Below the pieces are notes generated by a model that ran no database searches, was not told where the DNA came from, and saw nothing but the letters and a program-made list of their open reading frames with translations. From positions 1-44,896 of the forward strand of contig JAQBQI010000389.1 in NCBI GenBank assembly GCA_028287085.1: a DNA stretch of 44,896 bases, written 5' to 3'. The DNA comes from Myxococcaceae bacterium (GTDB lineage: Bacteria > Myxococcota_A > Polyangia > Polyangiales > Ga0077539). This document shows, one piece after another, positions 7,590-38,925 of this stretch. The first letter of the stretch is position 1; the number at the start of each line of letters is the position of its first letter. Made by a program: the position numbers and the translations under genes.

Positions 7590-7730
7590 GCACCTGGTGG
7601 CTCCGCGAGAGACATCGACCGGTCGAGGCGGGCGGATCGTTGCTGACGGCACCAGCAGGGTCAAGGCATTCCGCCAGCGACCAGACCTCGGCGACGGCGG
7701 CCCGCCATCCGCCTCGAACGATCTACTCGC

Positions 7731-8933: not shown

Positions 8934-8948
8934 GGTCTTCGCCTTCCT

Positions 8949-13530: not shown

Positions 13531-13662
13531 CCTCACCCTCCGTTCACCCATCGGTTACCACAGTCCGCCTTTCTCGGACAGAGGCTTCCACGGGATCGAT
13601 TGCCCGGTCGGCCTTGCTAGTCTTCAAGGCGGGCGTGGCCGTTGATGCTGACGCTGGAACCT

Positions 13663-13708
13663 AGCGGGTGCGGTTTGCCAACCAGCGGGTGCGGACGACA
13701 CGCCCGCT
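13663..13708. promoter_or_regulatory. operator-like repeats in the divergent intergenic region
   Basis: AGCGGGTGCGG occurs at 13663..13673 and again at 13684..13694 (21-bp spacing, two helical turns). An inverted partial copy GCCCGCT lies at 13702..13708. The repeats sit between the minus-strand dynamin block and the plus-strand operon. Confidence 0.3.
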
Positions 13709-14075
13709 GCCATCTTGTTGCTTGTCGGCAGTGGTGCTGCCCCTCCGTCGGTCAGCGTCACGCTGCTGCGAGCCACCAAGCCCGCTCCGCTCCCCATCGA
13801 CGTCTTCGAGCCTCTCCGAGGCCTGCGCCTCGAAGCGATACCGTTCGGTCGCTCGCGGTGTCCCTTGCCCGCCGGGAGCACTTCAGCTGGGTGATGGGCT
13901 GGAGTACCTTGGCGATCTCGGCACCAATCTTTCGGCCTCTTCGCCGTATGATGCGACCGAGCCCGCGACCAATCGTTGGGACTGCTGTCAGATTGTTCGC
14001 TAGGGGAGCGTCGAGCGGATGCTTTGTCCAAGAACGCCGGTGGTGGGGCGCAGGCCCGCGAAGGATGCTCGTCGC

Positions 14076-16157
14076 ATGTCGAATCCGCTTCCATTGCCTC
14101 TGTCCCAGCAGATGCTCGCGTGGCTCGTCCTGGCCCTCGGGCACGAGAACTCCGGCTCGCGCGGGCGCCGCCTGTCCCGCGGCACGCTCCAGAGCGCTCG
14201 CCACGGCAAGATCATCACGCGCAGCTGGCAGGACCTCGTGGAGAGTGTGACCGCGTTGCTGGGGCTCCCGCCGGTGGCACCCGCGCCGTGGCCCGAGCTG
14301 CTCCGCCGTTGGGACGCCGCGGTCACTACTATGCGCGCTCCGGCGCTCGAAGCTGGCGACGCGCTGCTCCCCGTCCTGCGGATCGCCGTCCCGCGAATCG
14401 GCGTCCGACTGGGCGCCGTGGCCGCGCTCGCCGCCTCCGCCACCGGAGCTCCGGAGAGTCGATGGGAGTGGCTCTGCGATCCACTCGACCCGCACCTGCC
14501 GAGGCGGGTGCTGGAGGGGTTGCTCACCCGCCATCGCCCGGAATGGCGAACCTGGGAGCAGCGCTACGCCGGGCTCGCCGGAGCGGTGGACCAGCGAACG
14601 ATCGAGAAGTGGAACGCCGGGGCCGTGCCGAGCCCGAAGGTGATCGGGAAGATCGCCGCGGCCGTGCACCGGGACGCCGAGGGGCCGCTCCGGTGGGCGC
14701 GGGCCCTGATGCTCTTGCGCGGCGAGTTGGAAGCGCTGGTCGGCGCCGTGGTGGTGAACTCCTGGCGGCGCGCCGTCCGGCAGGTCGCGACCTCGACCCT
14801 GGCCACCCTCACAGACCCGATGGCCATGTCCCGTGTCGCCGAGTTCTGGAACGAGGAGCTCGCCCGCGGCGCGACTCCCGAAGTCTTGGCCCTCTTCGCC
14901 GGGCTCGCGCAGATGGCCGGCGTCGAGTCCCGCGGGGACGACGCGGCCCCGTGGCTGGAGTGGGTCGCGGCGGCGCGGTACGGCGCGCGGTCTCCGACCA
15001 GGCCCGAGACCCACGCCGTTCTCCTGCTGACCATCCTGCAGCCGCACGCCCGACTGCTCAGCGCGTCGATGGGGCATTGCGACTCCCAGGTCGCCGATGC
15101 GCTGGCCCTGGCAGACCTCGGACGCTGGCTCGCGGGCGAGTGGGACCTGCTGTCGATGCTCCGTCGCCTCGTGCGAGGGGAGCCGATCGAGTTGTTGCAT
15201 CGCGGTCGCCCCAGGACGACGGGCCCGGTCCCCGACGATGTGCGCGACGCCGCGAAGGTCGCCCTCGAGAGCACACAGCGCTTCATCCGGGAGCGGGCAG
15301 ACAACACACGAGATCGAGAGGCCGACCGAACCGTCGGCCTGTTCCTGCTCGACGGGAACGCCCTCGACTACCGTGCGGAACTCACCGCATCGAGGGTGGG
15401 TCTCCCGCTCGCGGTGATCGACCGGGACCTCGAGCGCGCGATGCCGGAAGCAGACGTGCGCGCGACCCCAGCACTCGCATGCGCGCGGGCGCGACGGCTG
15501 GCGGAGGAGAACGACGTCCTCGGGGCGATCGCCATGTTCCAATCCATAGACGCCAGTGATCCTGTGCTGGATCGATCCGCACGCCGCGATCTCGCTCGGG
15601 CAATGATCGCGCTTGCGCACTCCCAGCTGGATGAATGCTACGAGAGTGTTCGAGAGTGGCTGGAGCTACGGGCGACGTTCCTCGTCGGGGATGACGCAAT
15701 GGCGATCGGCGAAGTGCTCACCGCTCTCGCCGACCGGGTCATCGCCGTCCTCGCCGCGCTGAACCAACTGCACTACTCGGCGGTCTTCATGCTCGTGCTT
15801 CCCGGGATCGCCGAGCCGCCCATCGATTCATTTGTGATGTCCTTCCCATTTGCTCTGCGATGCGAAGGCGTCTTTCGAGCGTTCGACCGCGAAAGCACGA
15901 TGCGGCCCGACTCGCTGACCTCCGCGGCAGTGCTCGCCTCGTGGGCAGAGAAGAACCCGAACGACGGCGAAGTGGCTGCGCTCCTCGCCCTCTGGGCTCG
16001 ATTCAGTGGCAGCTCTCCAGCGGCGCAAGCCAGCGCCGACAAGCTCTGTGAGCACCTCGGGACCGCGCCACTCCGCGACCAATGGATTGCGCGCCTCGAC
16101 CGCGACCTCCCTTTGACCACGAACGCCGGTTCTGGCCGGACCCTGGGGGAGGCATGA
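14076..16157 (+). CDS. hypothetical large alpha-helical protein (first gene of the plus-strand operon)
   Basis: This frame has very high GC3 and an ordinary amino-acid composition, whereas the overlapping 13758..15620(-) and 13976..15559(+) ORFs are Arg/Pro/Gly-rich. The ATG at 14076 (MSNPLPL) follows GAAGGA; the ORF opens at 14019. I recognise no domain. Confidence 0.65.
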   Translation: MSNPLPLPLSQQMLAWLVLALGHENSGSRGRRLSRGTLQSARHGKIITRSWQDLVESVTALLGLPPVAPAPWPELLRRWDAAVTTMRAPALEAGDALLPVLRIAVPRIGVRLGAVAALAASATGAPESRWEWLCDPLDPHLPRRVLEGLLTRHRPEWRTWEQRYAGLAGAVDQRTIEKWNAGAVPSPKVIGKIAAAVHRDAEGPLRWARALMLLRGELEALVGAVVVNSWRRAVRQVATSTLATLTDPMAMSRVAEFWNEELARGATPEVLALFAGLAQMAGVESRGDDAAPWLEWVAAARYGARSPTRPETHAVLLLTILQPHARLLSASMGHCDSQVADALALADLGRWLAGEWDLLSMLRRLVRGEPIELLHRGRPRTTGPVPDDVRDAAKVALESTQRFIRERADNTRDREADRTVGLFLLDGNALDYRAELTASRVGLPLAVIDRDLERAMPEADVRATPALACARARRLAEENDVLGAIAMFQSIDASDPVLDRSARRDLARAMIALAHSQLDECYESVREWLELRATFLVGDDAMAIGEVLTALADRVIAVLAALNQLHYSAVFMLVLPGIAEPPIDSFVMSFPFALRCEGVFRAFDRESTMRPDSLTSAAVLASWAEKNPNDGEVAALLALWARFSGSSPAAQASADKLCEHLGTAPLRDQWIARLDRDLPLTTNAGSGRTLGEA

Positions 16158-16179
16158 ACTCCGTGGAGGTCACTCATCC

Positions 16180-16491
16180 ATGGAACGTCCCGATTCATCA
16201 TCTCTCCTCGCACGCGCGGTTCGTGTCGCCGTCTTCGGTGGAGACGCCCGACAGGAGCGCCGCTTTCGACACCTCGGCGAGGTCGCCTTCTACCCGGCTG
16301 CCGGGTGCGGCGGCCCCCACCACGCGCAGCGGCTACTCGATTCGATCCGGCACGGCGGCGTCGACCGGGTCTTCATCCTCGCGCGCTGGAACGGCCACAG
16401 CGCGTCGGGCAGGGTCCGCGACGTCGCCCGTCGGCACGGCGTCCCCGTGACGATCCTCGCAGGGGTACAGGCCCCCCGCACCACTACTTAA
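16180..16491 (+). CDS. small DUF2325-like protein
   Basis: 103 aa. The pattern VAVFGGD...HGGVDRVFILARWNGHSASGRVRDVARRHGVPV resembles DUF2325 (GG...aD.Vv..td.vSH......k..a...g.P) from memory. It starts 22 nt after the upstream stop and ends 8 nt before the epimerase start. Confidence 0.5.
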   Translation: MERPDSSSLLARAVRVAVFGGDARQERRFRHLGEVAFYPAAGCGGPHHAQRLLDSIRHGGVDRVFILARWNGHSASGRVRDVARRHGVPVTILAGVQAPRTTT

Positions 16492-16499
16492 CGGAAGGG

Positions 16500-17407
16500 A
16501 TGACCCGGATGCCCAGACAGATTCTCATCACTGGTTCGTGCGGCCTCGTCGGGCGCGCGCTGACCCGCACGCTCACCACCGCGGGCTACGCCGTGCGCGG
16601 CCTCGACCCGGCGGCCGGGAACGCCCGCGACCGCGGCGACGTGCGCGACGCCGACGCCGTCCGCGCGGCGGTTGCCGAGAGCGACGCCGTGCTGCACCTC
16701 GGTGCGGTCTCCCGCGTCGTCTGGGGCGAGCGCGACCCGGCGCTCTGCCAGGCCACCAACGTCGAGGGCACCCGCAACGTCCTCCTCGCCGCCGCCCGCG
16801 CGCCGACCCGCCCGTGGGTGGTCGTCGCGAGCAGCCGCGAGGTCTACGGCCAGGCCACTACGCTGCCGGTCACCGAGGACGCCCCGCGACGACCGATGAA
16901 CGTCTACGCGCGCTCGAAGGTCGCCGCCGAAGAGCTCGCCGAGGCCGCCCGGCGGGACGGCGTCCGCGCCACGGTGGTGCGCCTGTCCAACGTCTACGGC
17001 TGCACCCGCGATCACCACGACCGGGTGATCCCGGCCTTCGCGCGGGCGGCGACCTTCGGTGACGCGATTCGAGTCGAGGGGGCCGACCGCCTGTACGACT
17101 TCACCCATATCGACGACGTCGCTCGCGGCCTCACCGCCCTGGTTCGTCGCCTCGACACCGGCATCGAGTTGCCGCCGATCCATTTCGTTTCGGGCGTCGG
17201 AACGACCCTCGGCGAACTCGCCTCTCTCGCGACTGCGCTCGCGGGCACGACTTGCGAGATCGCCCCCGCGCCGCCGCGCACCTACGACGTCGCGCGCTTC
17301 GTGGGCGACCCCGCACGGGCGTCCGACCTCCTCGACTGGCGACCGACGACTCCGCTGTCCGAAGGCCTTGCCCGACTGATCACGATGTTCCGCGAGGAGG
17401 GATCCCG

Positions 17408-17411
<4 letters not shown>
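16500..17411 (+). CDS. NAD-dependent epimerase/dehydratase (SDR family)
   Basis: Rossmann motif ILITGSCGLVGRAL and catalytic YARSK (YxxxK). The ATG at 16500 is preceded by GGAAGGG. The supplied ORF's upstream extension from 16305 is Arg/Pro-rich and unlikely to be coding. Confidence 0.9.
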
Positions 17412-19758
<2,347 letters not shown>

Positions 19759-19762
<4 letters not shown>

Positions 19763-21126
19763 ACTGGCGGACACTGCTCCCCTCCGACGACGGGACCCAC
19801 CACATCCGCGCGGGTGCCCCTGCCTACGCGCATCGCTTCGACGAGGTGTTGAAGTTCCACGAGCCGGGCCTCGCGCCAGTACGGCGCTGCGACGAGGCGT
19901 GGCACATCGACCCGTCGGGCGCGGCCGCGTACTCGCGTCGCTTCCGGCGCACCTTCGGCTTCTACGAGGGCCGCGCGGCGGTCGAGTCCGGCGACGGCTG
20001 GCATCACATCACGCCCGACGGCAAGGACGCCTACGGGCAGCGCTTCGCGTGGTCCGGCAACTTCCAGGGCGGCCGGGCGACGGTGCGCGCGCACGACGGT
20101 CGCTACCACCACCTGCTCCCCGACGGCGCGCCCTGCTACGCGGAGCGCTGGCGCTACGCGGGCGACTACCGCGACGGCGTCGCGGTGGTGCAGGCCGACG
20201 ACGGCAGCTCGTCCCACCTCGACGCGGCGGGAGCGCTGCTCCACGGGCGGTGGTTCGTCGACCTCGACGTGTTCCACAAGGGATTCGCGCGGGCGCGGGA
20301 CGAGTGGGGCTGGACGCACGTCGATCGGGCGGGCCGCCCCGCGTACGACCGACGCTTCGCGATGGTGGAGCCCTTCTACAACGGCCAGGCCCGGGCCGAG
20401 CGCGACGACGGCGCGCTCGAGGTCATCGACGAGGGAGGCCGCACGCTCACCGCGCTCCGCGAGCCGCCGCGCAAGGAGTCTGCCGTGGGCACCGACGAGA
20501 GGGCCGTCCGCGCGGAGCTCGCCCGCGTGGCGCGGCTCATCTACGAGCGCGGGTACAACGTCTCGATCGACGGCAACCTCTCCTACCGCCTCGACGACGG
20601 CACCCTGCTCATGACCCCGAGCGGGTCGCACAACGGGTTCATCCGCCCGGAAGACTTCGTCGTGACGCGCGCCGACGGATCGATCCTGCGGGGCGACCGC
20701 GCGCCGACTTCGGAGTACCGACTCCACGTCGAGATGCACCGCGTCCGCCCGGACTGCCGGTGTGTCATCCACGTGCACTCGCCCAACGCGCTCGCCGCCT
20801 CGCTCGCTGGGATCGACCTGCACGAGAGCTGGATCACCGTCGCGCCCGTCCCCACCACCCGGTACGCCCGCATCTCGTCGGAGCAGACCCCCGAGGTGCT
20901 GCGTCCCTACATGGACGACTACAACTGGGCGATCCTCCCGCGCCACGGCATCGTGACCTGGGCCGACACGGTGTGGAACGCCTTCCTCCGCGTGGAGGGC
21001 CTCGAGCACTACGCGAAGGTGCTGATCGCGGCGCGCTCGTGCGGTCCGATCGAGCCCATGCCCGACGACCGTCGCATCGAGCTGCTCTCGTTCTGGAACC
21101 TCGAGCACCTCGCGAGGAAGCCGTGA
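19759..21126 (+). CDS. fusion protein: WG-repeat domain plus class II aldolase/adducin-family domain
   Basis: The ATG at 19759 overlaps the upstream TGA (ATGA). There are about six ~38-aa repeats of the form G.W.HI...G...Y..RF......F..G.A.V. The C-terminal half carries class II aldolase motifs DGNLSYRL, LMTPSGS, SEYRLHVEMH and VIHVHSPNALA. Confidence 0.8.
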
Positions 21127-21761
21127 CCACGACCGCCGACGACCTCGCGCGCACGCTCGCCGCGCTCGACCGCACCCTCCCCTTCGCGCTCTTTCTCCGC
21201 CACGCCGAGCGCGAGGAGGTCCCCGCCGACGCCCCCTACGCCGACGTCGATCTGACCCCGGCGGGCGTACTCGCCGCGCGCGCCCTGGGCCGCTCGATCG
21301 GCGATGCGCTCGGCTGGGCGGCGACGAGCCCCTTCCTCCGCTGCCGTCGGACGGCCCGCGAACTCTCCGGGGGTCGCGACATCCCGATCGATGAAGACAC
21401 ACGCCTCGGGAGCCACGGGCCCTGGGTGCTCGACCACGAGGAGGGCGGGCGCCTCTTCGCCTCCCTGGGCATGAAGGGCGTCGTCCATGCGCAGATAGCC
21501 GGAACGCGCTGGCCCTGCATGCGCCCGTTGGACGAGGGCACGCGGCTCCTGCTCTCCTGCGCGCTCGACCGCATCGAGCGCGGCGGCAGCGGCGTGTGCG
21601 TGAGCCACGACGCGGTGCTGATGCCCGCCATCGCCTGGCTCACGGGCGACACCTTCGACGGGCGTTGGCTCTCGCCGCTCGACGGCTTCGCGCTCCAGCG
21701 CCACCCCGGCGGGTGGCGATGCGTCTGGCGCGGCTCGACCTTCGAGGTGCCGCCGTGCTGA
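21123..21761 (+). CDS. histidine phosphatase family protein (phosphoglycerate mutase-like)
   Basis: The GTG at 21123 overlaps the upstream TGA (GTGA). It has an RHG-type motif FLRHAEREE near the N-terminus and a second His block VCVSHDAVL. Length is 212 aa. Confidence 0.75.
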   Translation: MTTTADDLARTLAALDRTLPFALFLRHAEREEVPADAPYADVDLTPAGVLAARALGRSIGDALGWAATSPFLRCRRTARELSGGRDIPIDEDTRLGSHGPWVLDHEEGGRLFASLGMKGVVHAQIAGTRWPCMRPLDEGTRLLLSCALDRIERGGSGVCVSHDAVLMPAIAWLTGDTFDGRWLSPLDGFALQRHPGGWRCVWRGSTFEVPPC

Positions 21762-23416
21762 CCGTCGGGCTCTACGGGATCCGCGACACCACGCATGGGC
21801 AGCACCCGACGTACACGCACGACCACGGCGTCGCGTTCATGCGCGAGGGTCGCGTCGAGCGCGTCGTCGAGCTCGAACGCCACACCGGGCGTCGCCACGA
21901 CAACCGACTCGATCGCTATCTCCCAGAGCTGCTTGCGGCGCACGGCGAGGGCGGCGGAGAGGTGCGCTTCGTGTCGGTGAACTCCTTCGTGGGTGCCGCG
22001 TTCGTGAGCGCCGACGGCAACCTCCGCATCGAGCCCGAAGGGCGCGTGACGATCGACGCGCAGCCCGTTCCCGCCCGCGTGCACTGGTTTCCCGACGGGA
22101 TCACGAAGCGCGAGGCGACCGGCGAGGTGCTGTGCCACGAGTTCGCGCACGTCGCGAGCGTGCTGCCCTTCGTGGGGCGCTTCGAGGCGCGCAGCCTCCT
22201 GGTACACATCGACGGCGGGGCCTCGGACTCGGCGTGCTCGTTCTGGTGGTGGGACGGCGCGTCGGCCCGGCTGCTCGACGCGTCGTGGGATCGCATGAAG
22301 GACGCGGTGAACAACTTCAACGTCAACCCGCTCGTGCGCGCCATCCTGGGCTTCGAGACGCACGAGCACCTCTCGATCCCGGGCAAGCTGATGGGCTACG
22401 CGGGCCTCGGAACCAGTTCGCCGGCCGTGCGCTCGTGGCTGGAGGAGCGTCGCTTCTTCCTCGACCGCCCGTGGTCGCACGAGGAGTTGTGCGAGGCCGT
22501 GCGCGCCCGCTTCGGCGTGCGGTGGGAGCGCTTCGACGCCCGCGACCCGCTCTGCATGGACCTCTGCGCGGCCATCCAGGGACACTTCGAGGAGCGCGTC
22601 AGCGCAGAGATCCTTCGGTGGCAGGCGGAGACGGGAGCCACGCACCTGTACTACGCGGGCGGCGCCGCGCTGAACGTCCCGACCAACGCGCGCCTCGAAG
22701 CCTCAGGGGCCTTCCGCGCGGTGCACGCCCCGCCGTGCACGAACGACAGCGGGCTGGCGCTCGGCGCCGCGGCCTGGCGCGAGTTCCTCGACCGCGGCGA
22801 GGTCGAGGTCCACAGCCCCTTCCTCGGTCGCGCGGGGGCCACGGCCCGGCGCGTGGCGGTGCCGGATGACGTGGTCGACGAGGTCGTCGCGCGTCTCGCG
22901 GCGGGCGAGGTGCTCGGGGTCTGCGTGGGCGACGCCGAGGTCGGGCCGCGCGCCCTCGGACACCGCTCGATCCTCGCTCGTCCCGACCGCGTCGAGATTC
23001 GCGTGCGGGTGAGCGAGGAGATCAAGCGCCGCGAGTGGTACCGCCCCGTCGCGCCCGTGATGCTCGACGAGGTCGCGGCGCTCGCGCTCCCGCCCGAGGC
23101 GACGCGCAGCAACCTCGCGCCCTACATGCTCGGCGCGTGGCGGTTGCGCCCGGAGTGGCGGGCGCGCTTCGCGGGCGTCGTGCACGCCGACGGGACGATC
23201 CGCGCGCAGGTCGTCCGCTCCGACGACCCGGAGCAGGCCTTCCTCGCGGCCGTCCTGCGTCGGCTCTGGCAGCGCCACGGCGTCGCCGGGTTGATCAACA
23301 CGTCCTTCAACGGTCCTGGCGAGCCGATGCTCAACCGCCCCGAGGACGCGCTCGCCAGCGCGCGACGCCTCGGGCTCGACGGGGTGGTGATGGATGGATC
23401 CCTATATCGACCCTGA
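21755..23416 (+). CDS. carbamoyltransferase (NodU/CmcH/TobZ family)
   Basis: The N-terminus VLTVGLYGIRDTTHGQHPTYTHDHGVAFMREGRVERVVELERHTGRRHD is ASKHA-like. The C-terminal blocks are AEVGPRALGHRSILARP, KRREWYRPVAPVML and INTSFNGPGEPM. The GTG at 21755 overlaps the upstream gene by 7 nt. Confidence 0.85.
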   Translation: MLTVGLYGIRDTTHGQHPTYTHDHGVAFMREGRVERVVELERHTGRRHDNRLDRYLPELLAAHGEGGGEVRFVSVNSFVGAAFVSADGNLRIEPEGRVTIDAQPVPARVHWFPDGITKREATGEVLCHEFAHVASVLPFVGRFEARSLLVHIDGGASDSACSFWWWDGASARLLDASWDRMKDAVNNFNVNPLVRAILGFETHEHLSIPGKLMGYAGLGTSSPAVRSWLEERRFFLDRPWSHEELCEAVRARFGVRWERFDARDPLCMDLCAAIQGHFEERVSAEILRWQAETGATHLYYAGGAALNVPTNARLEASGAFRAVHAPPCTNDSGLALGAAAWREFLDRGEVEVHSPFLGRAGATARRVAVPDDVVDEVVARLAAGEVLGVCVGDAEVGPRALGHRSILARPDRVEIRVRVSEEIKRREWYRPVAPVMLDEVAALALPPEATRSNLAPYMLGAWRLRPEWRARFAGVVHADGTIRAQVVRSDDPEQAFLAAVLRRLWQRHGVAGLINTSFNGPGEPMLNRPEDALASARRLGLDGVVMDGSLYRP

Positions 23417-24575
23417 CCGGCTCGATCCCAGGCACCCGTCGTACGCGCGCAAGATCGACAACCTCCGGCGCGGTGACGAGGCGCATCGCTCGCGCGCCGA
23501 GGTGCTCGATGCGCTACCGGTCAAGCTCACGCTCCAGACCAACGACACCTGCAACCTCGACTGCCCGCACTGCCAGATTCCGCGCGCCGAAAAGCCACCG
23601 AAGATGAGCGCCGCGGTGCTCGAACGCGTGGTCGCCGAGCTCTTCCCCACGCTGGTCGAGCTGCACCCGAGCAACCTCGGCGAGGCCCTCCTGTGGCCGC
23701 TGTTTCCGCGGCTGTGCGCCGAGATGGCGCGCCACGGCGTGCTCCTCGACCTGACGACCAACGGCACGCTCCTCACCAACGAGCGTATCCTGTGGATCCG
23801 CCCGATCGCGCGCGACGTGAAGGTGTCCTTCGACGGCGCCACGCAGGAGACCTTCGAGCGACTGCGCCGCGGCGCTTCGTTTGCCGAGGTCTGTGAGGGC
23901 GTCGGTCGACTGGTCGATCGCCTCCGTGGGTCGCCCGCCCGCCCGACCGTCGCGCTCCAGATGACCCTGATGCGCTCGAACTACCGCGAACTCCCCGCGC
24001 TCGTGCGCCTCGCGGCGGAGCTCGGCGCGAGGCGCGTGAAGGCGTATCACCTGTTCTCGTTCTCGCCGGCGATGGACGACGAGTCCCTGATGGGCGACCT
24101 CGGCGTGTGGCCCGCCGTGCTGGCCGAAGCGCTCCGCGAGGGCGAGCGCCTCGGCATCGAGCTGCAGTGCGCAGAGCCCGAGGGCACGGGCGAGACCTCA
24201 CTCCGGCGCAGCGTCTGTCACCTGCCGTGGCACGAGGCCTGGCTCGACATCGACGGCTCGGTGCTGCCCTGCCACTCGCACGGCGGCGACTCGGCGGGCA
24301 ACGTGCTCGACGCGCCCTTCGTTGCGGCGTGGAACGGCCCTCTCTACCGAAAGGTCCGGCGCGCGTTCGCGCTCGATCGTCCGGCCTGGTACTGCGACGG
24401 GTGTGGGATGAACCTGGTGAAGTCCGCGGAGCACGACGCCGTGCCCTACGATCGCGAGAGCTTCCTGGCGCGAACGGCGCGCGGGGGTGGTGCGCTGCTA
24501 CCGACCTCGTCGCTGGTGCGCTGGAGCGGCCGGATGCGTCAGTTCGAACTCACGGGGCGCCGCGATGGACGATGA
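23394..24575 (+). CDS. radical SAM enzyme with SPASM/twitch-type C-terminal Cys cluster
   Basis: CX3CX2C motif NDTCNLDCPHCQ. The C-terminal cluster is CHLPWHEAWLDIDGSVLPCHS...GNV...WYCDGCGMN. The ATG at 23394 overlaps the carbamoyltransferase by 23 nt. Confidence 0.85.
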   Translation: MDPYIDPDRLDPRHPSYARKIDNLRRGDEAHRSRAEVLDALPVKLTLQTNDTCNLDCPHCQIPRAEKPPKMSAAVLERVVAELFPTLVELHPSNLGEALLWPLFPRLCAEMARHGVLLDLTTNGTLLTNERILWIRPIARDVKVSFDGATQETFERLRRGASFAEVCEGVGRLVDRLRGSPARPTVALQMTLMRSNYRELPALVRLAAELGARRVKAYHLFSFSPAMDDESLMGDLGVWPAVLAEALREGERLGIELQCAEPEGTGETSLRRSVCHLPWHEAWLDIDGSVLPCHSHGGDSAGNVLDAPFVAAWNGPLYRKVRRAFALDRPAWYCDGCGMNLVKSAEHDAVPYDRESFLARTARGGGALLPTSSLVRWSGRMRQFELTGRRDGR

Positions 24576-25500
24576 CGACACGCGGGCCGTGGTGTCCTCG
24601 GTGCAGGCGTGGCCATCGGCGCGCCGGCGCGCGGTGAGCCTGCGCGTGCTCGAGGAGGCGCCGCTCTTCGACCTCGAGGCAGCGTCGGCATGCAACATCG
24701 TGTGCAGCTTCTGCCCGCGCGACGAGATGGCGCGGCCGGAGCGGTTGATGTCGCCGGAGACCTTCGCGCGGGTGCTCGCGTTCCTGCCCGACGGCGCGGT
24801 CGTGATGTTCAGCGGGCTGGGCGACGCGCTGCTGAACCCGCGCCTCGAGGGCTTCGTCGCGGCCCTCACGGCGCGGGCGATTGCCTCGTGCGTGATCACC
24901 AACGGCCTGCGGCTCACGCCCCAGCGTGCGCGGGCGCTGATCGACGCGGGACTGCGCGAGTTCCAGGTGAGCGTGCACGGCCTCGACGCGGGCTCGCTCG
25001 CGCCGATCGTGACGCGCGGCGCCGACCCCGGACGGGTGGCCCGGCACCTCGACGCGCTCGCCGGGTTGCGGCCGCCCGACGTGCGCGTGCGCGTCAACTT
25101 CGTCGAGACGCCGGAGAACGTCGCGAGTCGCGAGCTGGTGCGCGCGTGGGCCGAGGCGCGGGGCTTCCGGTTCTTCTTCCGTCGCCTCCACACGCGAGGC
25201 GGCACGCTCACGCGGCGGCGCCCGGCGGAGGCCGTCGAAGGCTGTGGAATCTTCGCGGCAGTCACCTTCGTCACGGTCGAAGGCGACATCCTCCCCTGCG
25301 TCAACGACGTGCGCTCGGAGGGCGTGCTCGGCAACGTCGCCGACACGACCTTCGAGCGCCTGCGGGCTCGCAAGCGCGAGGTGATCGAGGGCGGAAGCTG
25401 GTTCGCGCCGTGCGCCGGATGCAATGACGACTATCGCTGGATCATCCTCGCGAACGGCGCCGTCGATGAGCGCCGATCGACGGCGCCGCCGGCTCGCTGA
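24565..25500 (+). CDS. radical SAM enzyme with SPASM-like C-terminal Cys cluster
   Basis: CX3CX2C motif ASACNIVCSFCPRD. The C-terminal cluster is GCGIFAAVTFVTVEGDILPCVND...GNV...FAPCAGCND. The ATG at 24565 (MDDDDTR) overlaps the upstream gene by 11 nt. Confidence 0.8.
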   Translation: MDDDDTRAVVSSVQAWPSARRRAVSLRVLEEAPLFDLEAASACNIVCSFCPRDEMARPERLMSPETFARVLAFLPDGAVVMFSGLGDALLNPRLEGFVAALTARAIASCVITNGLRLTPQRARALIDAGLREFQVSVHGLDAGSLAPIVTRGADPGRVARHLDALAGLRPPDVRVRVNFVETPENVASRELVRAWAEARGFRFFFRRLHTRGGTLTRRRPAEAVEGCGIFAAVTFVTVEGDILPCVNDVRSEGVLGNVADTTFERLRARKREVIEGGSWFAPCAGCNDDYRWIILANGAVDERRSTAPPAR

Positions 25501-25544: not shown

Positions 25545-27359
25545 TCACCCGGAGACGCGCCACTCCAGCAGACTCTTCAAGGCAACGGGCGCATCGAGGG
25601 TCAACGCCCTCTTGAGCGCGTCGACCGAGACGCGGTCCAGGGACAGTCCCGTCGAACGACCGTCCGCGACGGCGTTGCGAATGTCGACGAGGTGCACCGG
25701 CGCACCCGCCACGGAGATGACCTGCCGCCCCACTCCCGCGATCGACGCGAGGCCATCGAGCGCTGATCGATCGATCGCAGCCTCGAAGCTCGCGCGCACC
25801 CGCGGATCGTGGGTCTGTTCGAGCATGGTCACCATCGTCCCGAGCGACGGCGTCTTCTCCTGCTCGAGAAACATCTTGAACTCCGCCTTCGGCAGGAACG
25901 ACCCGGCATTGTCACGGGCGACCGCGCGTAGCGGCGCGAGCACGCGCTCTCGCAGCTCACGTTCGAGCGCGATCGCCAGGAGGTGAGCGCTGCGCCCGAG
26001 GTCATCGACGGCGCCGTGGTAGGTCACGTCGGCGCGCACGAGGTCATCCCTCGAATCGGAGTTCAGCCGCCCGAATCCATCCCCCAGAATCTGCTCCCAG
26101 CGCAATTGGGACTGTTTGCGTAGCCGATCGTGCCACTCCCAAGGGTTCACCGCGACCGGAGCTGCCGGCGTCACGTCGGGCCCGAGGACGCCCGTGATCC
26201 TCGCGAAGAGCGCGTCGAACGCCTCCCTCTCGGCCGCGCCTCGCGGCAGCAGGAACGCCTCCGCCCGCAGTTCGTTCGCCATGGCGCGCAGCTCTTCGAC
26301 CCACGCGCCCGTCATGGCACGCACGCGATCGTTCCTCAGACCGGCGATGACCTCGACCCGACGACGCGTGGCGCGCTCCAGGTACCAGAGCGCCTCACCG
26401 TGAAGTCCCGCGTCGGCGCAGACCCTGGCACGCAGCTGATCAAGCTTGGGGGTCACCACCGGATGGTCCAGCGCCTCCGCCATCGGGCCCACCTCGCCGA
26501 GCGCGGCGTGCGCGTCCGCGATTCGCCCGCGGCCCCGAAGGAACTCCGCGCGCTTCAGCGCGATGCGCAGGCGCACCTTCCGGTCGTCGTTCGGGTCGCT
26601 CGCGGCCCACGCCGCAGCGAGCGCCTCCTCGGCCTCCTTGGAGAGCCGCTCGCTGTCTCGCGGATCCCCGCCGACCACACGTGCGAGACGGGCGATCGCC
26701 AGCTCGGCGCGATGCTTTTGTGCGCTGCATCGACGGCGGCGGTCGCCGAGCAGTTCGCCGGCCCTCATCTCCTCGTCGAAACGCCACGCGGCCCCGTCGA
26801 GGTCGCCCCGGAGCAGCGCCGCGCGGCCGGCGAGGGCGCGAGCGTTGGCCAGGCGACGCGGATCCCCGAGGTTCTCGAGCAACTCCTCGTAGCGCGCGTA
26901 GCAGTCGTCGGCGCTGGCCCGCTGGTCGAGTTCGTCAAAGAGCGCTCCGAGGTTCCCAAGCAGCCTCGCTCGCACGCCGATGAGCGCGGGTCCGACCGCC
27001 ACGCGCAGCGCCTCGCGGAACAGGTCGTACGCCTCGTCGTGCCGCCCGAGGTCTCGGAGCGTCGCGCCGAGGTGGTTGCTCACGGCGAGCCATAACTCCG
27101 TGTCGTCCGCCCGCTGCGCAAGGTCGTGCGCTCTGCGGAAGTGATCCTCCGAGCGGGCCAGAGCAGCGGCTCCGCCCGCGCGATACAGGGACAAGCCTAC
27201 AAAGCGGTGGCAGCGCGACTGCGTGCGCAGGTCCTCGACAGCCGAGGCGAGCGCGAGCGCCTGCTCGTCGCACGCGAGTGCCGCCATCCAATCCTGGCGC
27301 AGGTACGCCTCCTTCCCTCGCGCGAGGTGCGCCTCGACCTCTTCCGCCGCGGTCGCCAT
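25545..27359 (-). CDS. TPR-repeat protein with an uncharacterised C-terminal domain
   Basis: The ATG at 27359 (MATAAEEVEAHLARGKEAYL) lies 1 nt after the upstream stop. It has repeated Ala/Leu/Arg-rich 34-aa-like helical units in the N-terminal two-thirds. The supplied ORF's 67-aa upstream extension is Arg/Gly/Cys-rich and overlaps the upstream gene. Confidence 0.75.
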   Translation of the reverse strand: MATAAEEVEAHLARGKEAYLRQDWMAALACDEQALALASAVEDLRTQSRCHRFVGLSLYRAGGAAALARSEDHFRRAHDLAQRADDTELWLAVSNHLGATLRDLGRHDEAYDLFREALRVAVGPALIGVRARLLGNLGALFDELDQRASADDCYARYEELLENLGDPRRLANARALAGRAALLRGDLDGAAWRFDEEMRAGELLGDRRRRCSAQKHRAELAIARLARVVGGDPRDSERLSKEAEEALAAAWAASDPNDDRKVRLRIALKRAEFLRGRGRIADAHAALGEVGPMAEALDHPVVTPKLDQLRARVCADAGLHGEALWYLERATRRRVEVIAGLRNDRVRAMTGAWVEELRAMANELRAEAFLLPRGAAEREAFDALFARITGVLGPDVTPAAPVAVNPWEWHDRLRKQSQLRWEQILGDGFGRLNSDSRDDLVRADVTYHGAVDDLGRSAHLLAIALERELRERVLAPLRAVARDNAGSFLPKAEFKMFLEQEKTPSLGTMVTMLEQTHDPRVRASFEAAIDRSALDGLASIAGVGRQVISVAGAPVHLVDIRNAVADGRSTGLSLDRVSVDALKRALTLDAPVALKSLLEWRVSG

Positions 27360-27360
27360 C

Positions 27361-28152
27361 TCAGCTCCCCGACCTCCCAGCGTCCCCAACCACCGTCGGC
27401 AACCCGAGCTCCCTGCGCAGCCCATCGAGGTCCAGCATCCTCCCGCCGGTCCCCTCCGTCGGCTGGCCCCGCAGCTCGAGTCCGCGCAGCCACGCCTCGA
27501 CCGCGGCGCGCCCCTCCTCCGTCGCCACGCGCCGCCGCGGAACACCTCCCACCGCCGCAATCTCCCGGTCCAGCGAGTCGCGCAGCGAGCGCGCCGTGAG
27601 CTCCGCCGCGGTGACCCTCGCCTCTTCTGGCGACTCGACGGGAACCGGGCGATTCGAGATCACCATCGTCTCATCGGCCTCGGCCTTCGTCCGGGCGACG
27701 TTGGGCTCGTCCTTCCACGGCGCCGTCATGGCGCGCGAGACCTCCTTCGGGCGCTCGCCCACGATCGCCTCGATGCGATCGAGCATCCGCGCCAATCGCG
27801 GCCCCGAGTTCGCCCGCACAATCCACCGCGAGCCCTCCCGTTCGAGCATCCCGAGCGCCTCACCCACCGGCGCGAGTGCCGTCGGAGCACCCGCCATCCA
27901 GCTCCACGCACGATCGCCGGTCTCCTCCATGTCGCCGGCCGCGCGCATCCGCGACGCCACCGTCGCGACCGTCGCCTTGAGCTTCACGACCACGTCGTAG
28001 AACTCCACGCAGTCGCCCTCGCTCGTGCTCAAGAAGGTGCGCGTCGGCTTCTTCGTCGCGAGGACCTCCTCGCCCAGTCGTGTGAGCACCCCATACGCGA
28101 CGCCCCACTGGCGCCGCAGCCCGGGCCCCGGCGCCGCCGGGTCGACCGCCAC
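27361..28152 (-). CDS. hypothetical protein (or the C-terminal part of a frameshifted larger gene)
   Basis: This frame has high GC3 and protein-like sequence only from about 28150 downward (VAVDPAAPGPGLRRQWGVAYGVLTRLGEEVL...). GTG at 28152 is the first plausible start. Upstream of that the frame is Arg/Gly-rich. TGA at 27363..27361. Confidence 0.5.
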   Translation of the reverse strand: MAVDPAAPGPGLRRQWGVAYGVLTRLGEEVLATKKPTRTFLSTSEGDCVEFYDVVVKLKATVATVASRMRAAGDMEETGDRAWSWMAGAPTALAPVGEALGMLEREGSRWIVRANSGPRLARMLDRIEAIVGERPKEVSRAMTAPWKDEPNVARTKAEADETMVISNRPVPVESPEEARVTAAELTARSLRDSLDREIAAVGGVPRRRVATEEGRAAVEAWLRGLELRGQPTEGTGGRMLDLDGLRRELGLPTVVGDAGRSGS

Positions 28153-37547: not shown

Positions 37548-37910
37548 ATGGACGCACCCGTCGAGCCGCCGCGCTACCTCACGACGAAGGACATCAACGC
37601 GCAGGTGCCTGGCCGATCGCGGCGGTGGATCTACGATCACATCGCGAAGGCCGGGGGCGCGAACGGCTTGATCCGCGAAGACCACTGGCTCCGCTATCTG
37701 GAAAGGCTCGCAACGTGGCAACCCTCCGACGAAAAGGCCCCTACTGGTACCTCCGCGACCGCTCTGGCGGCAGCGACACCGAGATCGCGACCGGCTGCAC
37801 CGACCGCAAGGCGGCCGAAGTCTGGCTGCGCCAGTGGGAGCGCGACCGCGCCGACCCCGAGGGTGCTGCCCGTCGCGCGGCAGCGGCGAGCACGATCCAA
37901 GAGGCCGTAG
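37548..37910 (+). CDS. possible excisionase/AlpA-like HTH protein; 3' end unresolved
   Basis: MDAPVEPPRYLTTKDINAQVPGRSRRWIYDHIAKAGG...WLRYLERL resembles HTH_17/AlpA-type proteins. GC3 in this frame collapses after about 37715, where the integrase frame takes over, yet the first in-frame stop is at 37910. Confidence 0.35.
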   Translation: MDAPVEPPRYLTTKDINAQVPGRSRRWIYDHIAKAGGANGLIREDHWLRYLERLATWQPSDEKAPTGTSATALAAATPRSRPAAPTARRPKSGCASGSATAPTPRVLPVARQRRARSKRP

Positions 37911-38914: not shown

Positions 38915-38925
38915 GCTACACCGGC
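38852..38925 (-). tRNA. tRNA with CAU anticodon (elongator Met, or Ile2 if lysidine-modified)
   Basis: Minus strand GCCGGTG-TA-GCTC-AGTCGGTTA-GAGC-A-GGGGA-ATCATAA-TCCCA-AGGTC-GTTGG-TTCAATT-CCGAC-CGCCGGT-A folds as a 74-nt cloverleaf. There is U before CAT in the 7-nt loop, one G.A at the top of the anticodon stem, and G1-U72. The 3' tail is encoded as CCC, not CCA. Confidence 0.85.

What the first reader, a model, noticed from the sequence alone, without database searches (positions are those of the whole stretch)
14076..25500. Nine-gene translationally coupled operon: orphan sugar-type biosynthetic cluster with three SPASM radical SAM domains
Seen: the junctions are 22 nt, 8 nt, ATGA, ATGA, GTGA, a 7-nt overlap, a 23-nt overlap and an 11-nt overlap. 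The gene set is a helical protein, a DUF2325-like protein, an SDR epimerase/dehydratase, a GT-radical SAM fusion, a WG-repeat-class II aldolase fusion, a histidine phosphatase, a NodU/CmcH-type carbamoyltransferase and two further CX3CX2C enzymes with C-terminal Cys clusters.
Established: carbamoyltransferases of this family O-carbamoylate sugars and antibiotics. Twitch/SPASM enzymes such as BtrN oxidise aminocyclitols. Class II aldolase-fold enzymes and histidine phosphatases act on sugar phosphates.
Inference: the product is probably a carbamoylated, radical-modified glycoside or cyclitol-type metabolite, or a cell-surface glycoconjugate, rather than a classical RiPP. There is no convincing precursor gene, and I see no B12-binding domain. 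I know of no characterised pathway with this combination.
Basis: partly seen in the sequence, partly recalled or inferred. Interest (0 to 1): 0.7.

Follow-up and report, generated by a model that had tools for sequence, protein, structure and literature searches.

The report
Mobile sugar-modifying radical SAM gene cassette
The nine genes are real, and seven of them form a rare version of a very widespread, highly conserved but biochemically uncharacterised sugar-modifying cassette whose core also sits in the "Undecim Cluster" of Wolbachia phage WO, so a free-living bacterium could be used to find out what that cassette makes.

Summary
Nine same-strand genes (14076-25500) have exactly the junctions described, and every domain call was reproduced.

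Three corrections.
1. The array is two modules. g1-g2 is a rare, separable pair that also occurs without the rest. g3-g9 is the biosynthetic cassette.
2. The cassette is not a complete orphan.
   - Its invariant heart is a GT4 glycosyltransferase fused to a radical SAM domain (g4), followed directly by a WG-repeat beta-propeller protein (g5 N-domain).
   - This pair occurs in at least 561 species-level genomes of eight or more phyla at 67-91% identity.
   - It also occurs at about 50% identity in Wolbachia phage WO (WD0612-WD0614, Undecim Cluster), on Rickettsia and Arsenophonus plasmids, and fused into megaproteins in a choanoflagellate and in Chromera.
   - No function has been shown for any of these.
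3. The three "SPASM" domains carry only four C-terminal cysteines, so they look Twitch-like.

The window's tailoring set (aldolase, histidine phosphatase, carbamoyltransferase, two more radical SAMs) recurs together in five other contigs. No precursor peptide, transporter or membrane protein is conserved with it.

The most likely product is a small soluble glycoside made through a phosphorylated intermediate, then O-carbamoylated and radical-modified. The operon lies in a defence island; a defence role is possible but untested.

The parts
13552..14075 (.). 524-bp divergent intergenic region upstream of g1; presumed promoter region
   Evidence: Lies between the minus-strand dynamin-like gene (ends 13551) and g1. 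No sigma-70 consensus or Rfam element was found.
14076..16157 (+). g1: 693-aa all-helical repeat protein with no known family. Separable accessory gene, possibly a sensor or regulator.
   Evidence: No Pfam, NCBIfam or PADLOC hit. Only 10 homologous clusters. AlphaFold model has pLDDT 82, pTM 0.81 and is an alpha-solenoid. No Foldseek PDB hit below E 0.06. Linked to g2+SDR in WIN, L005 and L090-L094, but without the cassette in L087-L089.
16180..16491 (+). g2: 103-aa protein, weakly DUF2325-like; constant partner of g1
   Evidence: DUF2325 at E 0.0014, 19 bits, below the cut-off. It is 62-88% identical next to g1 homologues in L001, L089-L094.
16500..17411 (+). g3: extended SDR, NDP-sugar epimerase/dehydratase type. 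Equivalent of Undecim UC2 (WD0612).
   Evidence: Epimerase 153 bits, with GxxGxxG and YxxxK motifs. Best solved relatives are UDP-sugar epimerases and dehydratases, including TunA, all at about 86 bits. Present directly upstream of g4 in about 52 of 83 loci. It is 39% identical to the phage WO gene.
17408..19762 (+). g4: fusion of a GT4 glycosyltransferase (aa 1-430) and a Twitch-like radical SAM domain (aa ~445-784). This is the invariant core and the equivalent of Undecim UC3 (WD0613).
   Evidence: Pfam. CNMKCVMC motif plus four or five C-terminal Cys. More than 3000 homologues, the best 120 being 71-91% identical. At least 561 species-level genomes. About 50% identical to phage WO and Rickettsia plasmid genes, about 55% to Arsenophonus plasmid genes. 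The GT domain is closest to sucrose-phosphate synthase, MshA, PimB', BshA and GlgM.
19759..21126 (+). g5: WG-repeat beta-propeller (aa 1-240) fused to a class II aldolase-fold domain (aa 247-455). The N-domain is the equivalent of Undecim UC4 (WD0614).
   Evidence: Pfam. AlphaFold pLDDT 87. The N-domain resembles BamB-type propellers. The C-domain resembles YgbL, DrdA and FucA. The WG domain lies directly after g4 in 83 of 83 loci. Elsewhere it is fused to O-methyltransferase, AAA_33 kinase, Pkinase or His_Phos, or stands alone.
21123..21761 (+). g6: histidine phosphatase (branch 1)
   Evidence: His_Phos_1 at 40 bits, with RHA and SHD motifs. A homologue is present in at least 42 of 83 loci. 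It is fused to carbamoyltransferase-GT4-rSAM-WG in a choanoflagellate protein.
21755..23416 (+). g7: NodU/CmcH/TobZ-type O-carbamoyltransferase
   Evidence: Carbam_trans_C 157 bits, Carbam_trans_N 56 bits. TobZ, GdmN and NovN at E 1e-32 to 1e-33. Co-occurs with g4 in L003, L074, L100 and L102, and is also found in L098/L099, short contigs that lack the g4 region. Fused to g4-type domains in P0259.
23394..24575 (+). g8: Twitch-like radical SAM enzyme, paralogue of the g4 radical SAM domain
   Evidence: Radical_SAM + SPASM. It is 31% identical to the g4 radical SAM domain over 348 aa, E 6e-34. Orthologues at 55-68% in L074 and L098-L100.
24565..25500 (+). g9: Twitch-like radical SAM enzyme; BtrN is its closest solved relative
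   Evidence: Radical_SAM 54 bits; SPASM exactly at the cut-off. BtrN at E 9e-11 over the N-terminal 105 residues only. Orthologues at 48-62% in L074, L099 and L100.
25545..27560 (-). Convergent 671-aa TPR protein; possible tenth, accessory component
   Evidence: TPR_12. Homologues at 31-73% lie next to the cassette in L005, L013, L021 and L024, on the cassette strand in the last three.

Best explanation
The window holds a genuine, tightly packed nine-gene array built from two modules.

Genes 3-9 are a self-contained, horizontally mobile sugar-modifying cassette. Its invariant engine is the GT4-Twitch radical SAM fusion (g4) working with the WG-repeat beta-propeller (N-domain of g5).

Proposed pathway. 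All steps are inferred; none has been shown biochemically.
1. The SDR g3 tailors an NDP-hexose donor.
2. The GT4 domain of g4 transfers that sugar to a small phosphorylated sugar or polyol acceptor, as sucrose-phosphate synthase and MshA do.
3. The fused radical SAM domain abstracts a hydrogen from the new glycoside. The outcome would be a BtrN-type oxidation or a rearrangement.
4. The propeller holds tailoring enzymes on this complex. Here the tethered enzyme is a metal-dependent class II aldolase-fold domain acting on the keto-sugar phosphate part.
5. g6 removes the phosphate.
6. g7 O-carbamoylates a hydroxyl by the TobZ mechanism.
7. g8 and g9 add further radical oxidations or deoxygenations.

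The product would be a small, soluble, carbamoylated, radical-modified glycoside.

The window carries the rare carbamoyl/aldolase/2x radical SAM version of a family whose common version uses an O-methyltransferase. That common version includes the UC2-UC4 core of the phage WO Undecim Cluster.

Genes 1-2, and perhaps the convergent TPR gene, are a lineage-restricted accessory pair. They are most likely regulatory or sensory, not catalytic.
For: Shown by computation:
- Gene structure and domains.
- Motifs read directly from the translations: YxxxK in g3, CX3CX2C three times, H-x-H plus His in the g5 aldolase domain, RH..SHD in g6, HxxxH in g7.
- The WG domain follows g4 in 83 of 83 loci, the SDR precedes it in about 52, and a histidine phosphatase is present in at least 42.
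- The full extended set recurs with g4 in L074, L100 and (without g8/g9) L102 at 39-76% identity, with the aldolase fused or free and in different positions. L098 and L099, short contigs, carry the tailoring genes alone.
- Rosetta-stone fusions. A choanoflagellate protein reads His_Phos - carbamoyltransferase - GT4 - rSAM - WG. Chromera and metagenome proteins read WG - O-methyltransferase - NTP_transferase - GalK-like GHMP kinase - GT4 - rSAM. These tie phosphatase, carbamoyltransferase and propeller to g4, and place sugar activation at the start of the pathway.
- The GT domain's best solved relatives are dominated by GT4 enzymes with small soluble acceptors, some of them phosphorylated: sucrose-phosphate synthase, MshA, BshA, GlgM.
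- g7 is closest to antibiotic O-carbamoyltransferases.
- g8 is a paralogue of the g4 radical SAM domain, which suggests the same class of substrate.
- No membrane segments, transporter, precursor peptide or RRE in g1-g9.
- g1-g2 are separable.
Against: - No member of the family has been characterised, so every chemical step is by analogy.
- The similarity to solved GT4 enzymes lies mainly in the donor-binding half (residues about 190-435 at most). It says little about the acceptor.
- The radical SAM domain of g4 has no solved relative by sequence.
- Identity of 59-75% across 44-72% GC genomes and eight or more phyla is unusually high for secondary metabolism. It could mean a conserved macromolecular partner.
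- Most cassettes, including this one, have no exporter or self-resistance gene.
- About 30 of 83 related cassettes carry a conserved small ORF that could be a peptide substrate.
- g1 and g2 are only guessed to be regulatory. No HTH model matches.
Confidence: 0.5

Rival explanations
1. The acceptor is a macromolecule rather than a small metabolite. The GT4-radical SAM/propeller pair would glycosylate and radical-modify a protein, a nucleic acid or a cell-envelope polymer, of the cell itself or of an invader. The swappable enzymes on the propeller (methyltransferase, kinases, phosphatase, aldolase) would then be effector-like modifiers, as in conflict systems.
For: - Housekeeping-level conservation across phyla.
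- g4 passes the Pfam GT4-conflict model (47 bits against a cut-off of 26), a family defined from conflict systems (PMC8195603).
- The propeller is fused to protein-kinase-fold domains in some relatives.
- The radical SAM domains score best, though far below cut-off, against protein-maturase families.
- The window, L001, L002 and L087 lie among restriction, DISARM-like, GmrSD and dynamin-like defence genes.
- The published Undecim prediction is exopolysaccharide/LPS synthesis (PMC9203015).
Against: - The general GT4 models score twice as high as GT4-conflict.
- No PADLOC system matches.
- No recurrent neighbour: 146 Pfam families among 116 nearest flanking genes.
- The nearby SNF2 helicases are not orthologous.
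- No membrane, flippase, polymerase or lipid-carrier enzymes.
- Fusion to a GalK-like kinase plus an NDP-sugar pyrophosphorylase, and to a phosphatase and a carbamoyltransferase of the antibiotic type, fits small-sugar chemistry better.
Confidence: 0.2
2. The cassette matures a ribosomal peptide or a peptide-derived cofactor. The logic would be mycofactocin-like: radical SAM/SPASM plus glycosyltransferase plus methyltransferase acting on a small precursor.
For: - A conserved 60-100 aa ORF with the motif DNRANQLNPxHPAYxxSRG, sometimes in two copies, lies directly upstream of the SDR or g4 in about 30 of 83 related loci.
- The radical SAM domains give weak hits to mycofactocin, PQQ and sactipeptide maturases.
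Against: - The small ORF is absent from the window, from every extended-version locus, and from phage WO and the Rickettsia plasmid.
- No other conserved small ORF exists among the extended loci.
- No RRE, peptidase or exporter.
- All maturase hits are far below the curated cut-offs.
- The SDR, phosphatase, sugar kinase and NDP-sugar pyrophosphorylase partners have no role in a peptide pathway beyond sugar supply.
Confidence: 0.08
3. The aldolase-fold domain of g5 is not a tailoring enzyme. It would dispose of 5-deoxyribulose-1-phosphate derived from 5'-deoxyadenosine, the by-product of the three radical SAM domains.
For: - The second-best solved relative, by sequence and by fold, is DrdA (6BTD/6BTG), the 5-deoxyribulose-1-phosphate aldolase of radical SAM by-product salvage (PMC6079011).
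- In the loci sampled, the aldolase was found only in versions with the carbamoyltransferase, most of which also carry the extra radical SAM genes.
Against: - The scores to YgbL/OtnC, DrdA and FucA are nearly equal, so specificity cannot be read from them.
- The kinase and isomerase of that salvage route are absent.
- Fusion to the pathway-specific propeller argues for a role on the pathway intermediate.
Confidence: 0.1

Closest known systems
Undecim Cluster of Wolbachia prophage WO (WD0611-WD0621; UC2-UC4 = WD0612-WD0614) and its copies on Rickettsia plasmids (pREIS2, pRA1)
   Same: Same gene order: SDR, then GT4-radical SAM fusion, then WG-repeat protein. Identities to the window are 39%, 47-53% and 46%. 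The cluster is mobile and its function is unknown (PMC9203015, PMC4701759, PMC12801941).
   Different: In phage WO the propeller is fused to an O-methyltransferase, not an aldolase. It is followed by a PhyH dioxygenase, an ABC transporter, two PLP threonine-aldolase-like enzymes, GlpT, UDP-glucose dehydrogenase and a GlmU-like gene. The window has instead a histidine phosphatase, a carbamoyltransferase and two more radical SAM enzymes, plus g1-g2. It lies in a free-living myxobacterial-type genome.
Canonical free-living version of the same cassette (for example Haliangium, Sorangium, Zoogloea, Halomonas, Azospira; loci L006-L084)
   Same: g4 is 67-78% identical, the WG domain 59-69% and the SDR about 55%. 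A histidine phosphatase is common.
   Different: 58 of 83 loci fuse the propeller to an O-methyltransferase. 34 have an unassigned 220-aa domain after the phosphatase. About 30 have the small DNRANQLNP protein. The carbamoyltransferase and the two extra radical SAM genes are rare: only the window, L074 and L003 among the 83-locus set.
2-deoxystreptamine aminoglycoside pathways (BtrM/BtrN of butirosin; TobZ of tobramycin; AprD4/AprD3 of apramycin)
   Same: The enzyme classes are shared: GT4 glycosyltransferase, Twitch radical SAM acting on a sugar or cyclitol, SDR, O-carbamoyltransferase. Pathway roles of the named enzymes are from my own knowledge.
   Different: No sugar-phosphate cyclase, aminotransferase or deacetylase. 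The match to BtrN covers only the N-terminal 105 residues of g9. GT and radical SAM are fused here.
Glycoside-phosphate synthase/phosphatase pairs (sucrose-phosphate synthase/phosphatase; MshA/MshA2; GpgS/GpgP)
   Same: A GT4 domain closest to sucrose-phosphate synthase and MshA, with a dedicated phosphatase in the operon. The logic of these pairs is from my own knowledge.
   Different: Those systems have no radical SAM, propeller or carbamoyltransferase. g6 has no close solved relative.

Membership tests
Undecim-type GT4-radical SAM cassette (UC2-UC3-UC4 core) | GT4 and radical SAM/SPASM domains fused in one ~780-aa protein homologous to WD0613 | tested here: met
   tblastn: 99% coverage, 49.8% identity to phage WO MN180251; 50% to Rickettsia plasmids.
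Undecim-type GT4-radical SAM cassette (UC2-UC3-UC4 core) | SDR gene directly upstream and WG-repeat gene directly downstream of the fusion | tested here: met
   g3 and g5 overlap g4 by ATGA at both ends. The order is the same in L085 and L086 and the WG gene follows g4 in 83 of 83 loci.
Undecim Cluster in the strict, eleven-gene sense | WG protein fused to O-methyltransferase; PhyH, ABC transporter, two PLP aldolases, GlpT, UDP-glucose dehydrogenase, GlmU-like gene; prophage WO or endosymbiont setting | tested here: not met
   None of these domains occurs in g1-g9. The window carries aldolase II, His_Phos, carbamoyltransferase and two radical SAM genes instead.
RiPP / radical SAM-SPASM peptide maturase system | Adjacent conserved precursor peptide | tested here: not met
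   No motif ORF in the window. No conserved small ORF among the six extended-version loci. A small ORF does exist in about 30 O-methyltransferase-type loci.
RiPP / radical SAM-SPASM peptide maturase system | Membership in a curated maturase family; RRE domain | tested here: not met
   All NCBIfam maturase hits are at 16-81 bits against cut-offs of 265-855. No RRE model was hit.
Full SPASM subfamily (two auxiliary clusters) | Seven-cysteine C-terminal motif | tested here: not met
   Only C-X17/18-C...C-X2-C (four or five Cys) in g4, g8 and g9. The Pfam SPASM model is still matched.
Known anti-phage defence systems (PADLOC 2.0) | Match to a defence-system protein model | tested here: not met
   Only generic radical SAM similarity to pVip, at 25-32 bits. 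The NCBIfam viperin model gives 25 bits against a cut-off of 180.
2-deoxystreptamine aminoglycoside gene cluster | 2-deoxy-scyllo-inosose synthase and aminotransferases | tested here: not met
   No such domains in g1-g9 or in the flanks.
Surface polysaccharide / LPS cluster | Membrane-bound initiating transferase, flippase, polymerase or exporter | tested here: not met
   No such Pfam domains. The maximum 19-residue hydropathy of any of the nine proteins is 1.75.
5-deoxyribose salvage (DrdK-DrdI-DrdA) | Kinase and isomerase next to the aldolase | tested here: not met
   Only the aldolase fold is present.
TobZ/NodU/CmcH O-carbamoyltransferases (g7) | Kae1-like N-domain with HxxxH and YrdC-like C-domain | tested here: met
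   Carbam_trans_N and Carbam_trans_C both above cut-off. CHEFAH motif. TobZ at E 2.5e-32. The substrate cannot be tested here.

The most novel reading that the evidence does not exclude
The GT4-radical SAM/propeller pair makes a conserved bioactive sugar scaffold. Its decoration would be swapped between lineages (O-methyl, phosphate, carbamoyl, extra radical modifications) because it is used in biological conflict or host manipulation.

The cassette would then be a mobile chemical weapon or signal. It is carried by defence islands in free-living bacteria, by plasmids of Rickettsia and Arsenophonus, by the eukaryote-association module of phage WO and by at least one other phage. It has also been captured as single megaproteins by a choanoflagellate and a chromerid alga.

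The window's version, sitting between dynamin-like, SNF2, type IIG and other defence genes, would be an anti-phage or anti-competitor small-molecule system of a new kind.
Probability: 0.2. Interest if true: 0.85.

Novelty: new variant of a known kind. Interest (0 to 1): 0.65.

Why it matters
The Undecim Cluster is one of the most conserved and most highly expressed accessory regions of Wolbachia prophage WO. As of December 2025 its function was still stated to be unknown (PMC12801941). Wolbachia cannot be grown or engineered easily.

This analysis shows that the core of that cluster belongs to a much larger family. The family is found in culturable free-living bacteria, named in the locus record titles as Sorangium, Polyangium, Myxococcus, Nannocystis, Halomonas, Azospira and Ramlibacter. 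It comes with interchangeable tailoring enzymes, and eukaryotic fusion proteins tie the parts together.

That makes the chemistry directly testable. It also gives a natural series of variants (methyl, kinase, and carbamoyl plus two radical SAM enzymes) from which the scaffold and its decorations can be deduced.

The fused GT4-Twitch radical SAM enzyme would also be a new enzyme type.

Tried and rejected
- Promoter and terminator scans around both ends of the array found nothing.
- Rfam found only the tRNA, and no riboswitch.
- A search for an att-type direct repeat of tRNA-Met found none, so the left end of the island lies outside the window or is not marked.
- PADLOC gave no system for any of g1-g9.
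- g1 has no Pfam or NCBIfam family, and its good AlphaFold model has no significant Foldseek match. From the residues 165-198 I suspected an XRE-like helix-turn-helix, but no Pfam model matches that segment even at E 10, so I do not claim it.
- I tested whether SNF2 helicases, which sit near the cassette in the window, L001, L093 and phage WO, are a conserved partner. They are not orthologous.
- I tested a tunicamycin-like reading through TunA (3VPS). It is among the top hits of g3, but at the same score as many generic UDP-sugar epimerases, so it is not informative.
- g6 has no informative solved relative.
- Literature searches for a GT-radical SAM fusion and for the small-protein motif found nothing.
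- The aggregated Pfam scan of 116 nearest flanking genes showed no recurrent partner.
- One context look-up (Haliangium protein P0108) returned nothing.

Full report
**1. The observation**

The window is about 70% G+C, so raw ORF lists are crowded with shadow frames. A GC1/GC2/GC3 frame test picks out one clean series of + strand genes between 14004 and 25500. The junctions are 22 nt, 8 nt, ATGA, ATGA, GTGA, and overlaps of 7, 23 and 11 nt, exactly as described.

Pfam and NCBIfam reproduce every domain call:
- extended SDR (g3)
- GT4 plus Radical_SAM plus SPASM (g4)
- WG repeat plus class II aldolase (g5)
- histidine phosphatase (g6)
- NodU/TobZ-type carbamoyltransferase (g7)
- two more Radical_SAM/SPASM proteins (g8, g9)

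g1 has no family. g2 is only weakly DUF2325-like (19 bits, below the cut-off). There is no B12-binding domain.

One refinement. After the CX3CX2C motif each radical SAM domain has only C-X17/18-C...C-X2-C. That suffices for one auxiliary cluster, which is the Twitch pattern as I recall it for BtrN, not a full SPASM. g8 is a clear paralogue of the g4 radical SAM domain (31% over 348 aa, E 6e-34).

**2. Setting**

The array lies in a defence-type genomic island.
- Left side, all on the minus strand:
  - a type IIG restriction-modification enzyme (64-3291), in DNA of only 57% G+C
  - a 1458-aa SNF2 helicase (3288-7664)
  - an unknown gene
  - two tandem dynamin-like GTPases matching the PADLOC LeoA/LeoBC models (8949-13551)
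- Right side:
  - a TPR protein
  - unknown genes
  - an HTH protein
  - an AAA-like ATPase
  - a tyrosine integrase (37625-38914) that abuts tRNA-Met (38850-38925)
- Ordinary genes (amidase, histidyl-tRNA synthetase) follow.

No att repeat of the tRNA lies inside the window.

**3. The cassette is widespread and its core is invariant**

*Distribution of g4*
- It has more than 3000 homologues. The best 120 are full length and 71-91% identical.
- A scan of one genome per species found at least 561 carriers.
- The best 80 are 67-91% identical over the whole protein.
- By their record titles they come from Myxococcota, Alpha-, Beta- and Gammaproteobacteria, Latescibacterota, Planctomycetota, Nitrospinae, Gemmatimonadota and sulfate reducers.
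- These loci range from 44 to 72% G+C. The protein conservation is therefore constraint, not only recent transfer.

*What travels with g4.* I clustered the ORFs of these loci and mapped domain queries onto them.
- The WG-repeat domain is encoded immediately after g4 in 83 of 83 loci, at 59-71% identity.
- An SDR precedes g4 in about 52 loci.
- A histidine phosphatase is present in at least 42.
- What is fused to the WG domain varies:
  - O-methyltransferase in 58 of 83 loci
  - nothing
  - an AAA_33 kinase
  - a protein-kinase-fold domain
  - a histidine phosphatase
  - or, as in the window, a class II aldolase

*The window's tailoring set is rare but recurs together.* It is found in an uncultured proteobacterium (L074: aldolase 73%, phosphatase 56%, carbamoyltransferase 63%, g8 67%, g9 57%). 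It is also found in a seawater contig (L100, where the aldolase is a separate last gene), and in L098, L099 and L102. L003 has the set without g8 and g9. Shuffled order together with retained content is good evidence that g3-g9 work together. No further conserved ORF, large or small, accompanies these loci.

**4. g1 and g2 are a separate module**

g1 has only ten homologous clusters in 5.8 billion sequences.
- In the window, L001/L005 and L090-L094, the order is g1-g2-SDR, continuing into g4 where the contig is long enough.
- In L089, g1-g2 follow a different radical SAM gene and no cassette follows.
- In L087, g1 stands alone among GmrSD, Mrr, AAA_21 and DISARM-like genes.
- A 27% relative sits in yet another context.

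g2 is better conserved (62-88%) than g1 (40-71%).

The AlphaFold model of g1 is confident (pLDDT 82, pTM 0.81) and is an all-alpha solenoid. It has no significant structural match, only weak resemblances to 14-3-3, TPR, AimR and IFIT. I read g1-g2 as an accessory pair, probably sensory or regulatory. This is a guess.

The convergent TPR gene (25545-27560) has homologues beside the cassette in four other loci, three of them on the cassette strand. It may also belong.

**5. Link to a named but uncharacterised system**

tblastn of g4 against plasmids and phages gave full-length matches:
- about 50% identity in Wolbachia phage WO (MN180251, MW788655)
- about 50% identity on Rickettsia plasmids (pRA1; a plasmid of the Ixodes pacificus endosymbiont)
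- about 55% identity on Arsenophonus plasmids

The annotated neighbourhoods are the Undecim Cluster, WD0611-WD0621, as defined by Bordenstein and Bordenstein (PMC9203015). Its parts are:
- UC2: SDR
- UC3: GT/radical SAM fusion
- UC4: WG-repeat O-methyltransferase
- UC5: PhyH dioxygenase
- an ABC transporter
- two PLP aldolases
- GlpT
- UDP-glucose dehydrogenase

Its functions are predictions only. Proteomics shows that WD0612 and WD0613 are abundant (PMC4701759). A December 2025 paper still calls the function unknown (PMC12801941). The window's g3-g4-g5(N) is therefore a free-living relative of UC2-UC4 with a different tailoring set. One further phage-like contig (L095, with a large terminase 5 kb away) carries the g4/WG pair.

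**6. Fusion proteins that tie the parts together**

An exhaustive search of 1.8 billion representatives found full-length relatives down to 35% identity, and several megaproteins:
- The choanoflagellate Stephanoeca diplocostata (2280 aa): histidine phosphatase - carbamoyltransferase - GT4 - radical SAM - WG propeller - weak GT2.
- Chromera velia Cvel_1502 (2458 aa) and a metagenome protein (2277 aa): WG - O-methyltransferase - NTP_transferase - galactokinase-like GHMP kinase - GT4 - radical SAM.
- Others: GHMP kinase - GT4 - radical SAM.

These fusions independently link phosphatase, carbamoyltransferase and propeller to g4. They also place a sugar kinase and an NDP-sugar pyrophosphorylase, that is sugar activation, at the head of the pathway.

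**7. What it most likely does**

Evidence bearing on each step:
- *GT domain.* By single sequence and by profile, its best solved relatives are sucrose-phosphate synthase, MshA, PimB', BshA and GlgM. Most of these are GT4 enzymes that glycosylate small soluble acceptors, some of them phosphorylated. The caveat is that the aligned part is mainly the donor-binding half.
- *Phosphatase.* A dedicated phosphatase is a frequent partner.
- *g5.* Its model (pLDDT 87) shows an N-terminal beta-propeller resembling BamB. Its C-terminal class II aldolase fold is closest to YgbL, DrdA and FucA, and the metal-binding histidines are present.
- *g7.* It resembles TobZ, GdmN and NovN.
- *g9.* Its best solved relative is BtrN, over the N-terminal part only.
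- *Location.* None of the nine proteins has a membrane segment.

From this I infer an NDP-sugar-dependent synthesis of a small glycoside through a phosphorylated intermediate. The fused and the two free Twitch enzymes would modify it by radical chemistry. It would then be dephosphorylated and O-carbamoylated. The propeller would act as the dock that brings lineage-specific tailoring enzymes to the core enzyme or its product. Gene structure, domains, motifs, co-occurrence and fusions are shown. Every catalytic step and the nature of the acceptor are inferred.

**8. Rivals**

*A macromolecular acceptor (protein, nucleic acid, envelope polymer).* It is suggested by the extreme conservation, the above-cut-off GT4-conflict match, the kinase-fold fusions and the defence-island settings. 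Against it:
- the lack of any recurrent neighbour
- the non-orthologous helicases
- no PADLOC match
- no membrane machinery
- the sugar-activation fusions

*A peptide route.* It is raised by a small conserved ORF (motif DNRANQLNPxHPAYxxSRG) upstream of about 30 O-methyltransferase-type cassettes. That ORF is absent from the window, from all extended-version loci and from phage WO.

*The aldolase as a 5-deoxyribulose-1-phosphate aldolase for radical SAM by-product salvage.* This is a lead from the DrdA similarity. It is not specific, and the partner enzymes of that route are missing.

**9. Verdict**

- no characterised pathway matches;
- g3-g9 are co-conserved;
- no precursor peptide accompanies this version.

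Four things must be amended: the two-module structure, the Twitch-type domains, the defence-island context, and above all the homology to the Undecim Cluster core and to a very large cross-phylum, cross-kingdom family. I rate it a new variant of a known, named but functionally unknown, kind. Interest is moderately high because it offers a tractable route to an open question in Wolbachia biology and to a probably new enzyme type.

Noticed in passing
window 64-3291 (-): Type IIG restriction-modification enzyme (PADLOC REase_MTase_IIG, E 3e-123) in DNA of only about 57% G+C, against about 70% for the rest of the window. It looks like a recent acquisition at the edge of the island.
   Followed up: partly
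window 3288-13551 (-): A co-directional run of four genes: a 1458-aa SNF2 helicase, a 400-aa unknown protein, and two tandem dynamin-like GTPases (875 and 662 aa, overlapping by 14 nt) that match the PADLOC LeoBC/LeoA models. Possibly a dynamin-type defence system with an unusual helicase partner.
   Followed up: partly
window 37625-38925: The longest ORF of the tyrosine integrase overlaps tRNA-Met (38850-38925, minus strand). No direct repeat of the tRNA end occurs in the window, so the other end of the island is not in view.
   Followed up: partly
L007, L010, L011, L013-L015, L017, L018, L020, L022, L029, L036, L040, L041, L044, L046, L047, L050, L055, L059, L061, L063-L065, L071, L075, L079-L081, L083 (just upstream of the SDR or of g4): A conserved small protein of 60-100 aa with the motif DNRANQLNPxHPAYxxSRG, sometimes in two copies, has no Pfam family and no literature. 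It accompanies about a third of the O-methyltransferase-type cassettes but none of the carbamoyl-type ones.
   Followed up: partly
proteins P0259, P0267, P0257, P0256, P0258: Eukaryotic or eukaryote-like megaproteins of 1300-2460 aa fuse the whole cassette into one chain. Examples are from Stephanoeca diplocostata and Chromera velia Cvel_1502. This implies transfer of the cassette to eukaryotes.
   Followed up: partly
g4 residues C132, C152, C160, C164 (window about 17801-17899): Four cysteines inside the N-terminal GT4 domain are invariant in 21 diverse homologues. They may form an extra zinc or iron-sulfur site not expected in GT4 enzymes.
   Followed up: no
L074 1748-5053: The SDR and the GT4-radical SAM fusion lie in one uninterrupted reading frame of 1087 aa from the first start codon. 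This is a possible triple fusion.
   Followed up: no
L001/L005 9759-10004: In the closest relative of the window (g4 91% identical), the SDR is reduced to an 81-aa C-terminal remnant. The tailoring set there is a WG-AAA_33 kinase, an alkaline-phosphatase-superfamily protein, a histidine phosphatase and a 219-aa unknown protein. Near-identical cores therefore carry different decorations.
   Followed up: partly
L095 1802-4087 and 8933-12105: An IMG/VR viral contig carries a large terminase (GpA nuclease domain) 5 kb from a g4/WG pair that is 59% and 51% identical to the window. This is a second phage-borne instance besides phage WO.
   Followed up: partly
window 30447-30510 and 30699-30762: A 64-nt direct repeat (75% identity, 252 nt apart) lies inside the unknown gene 30220-30990, so the gene has an internal duplication. 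This gene, the HTH gene and the 611-aa gene to its right are 60-67% identical to genes right of the cassette in L005. A block larger than the operon is therefore shared.
   Followed up: no
L023 14085-14765, L014 about 10000-10698 and 32 other loci: An unassigned domain of about 220 aa follows or is fused to the histidine phosphatase in 34 of 83 loci. It contains the sequence GGAFKSLLTGRPPRDLDLWAP, which looks to me like a nucleotidyltransferase motif. No Pfam hit even at E 1.
   Followed up: partly
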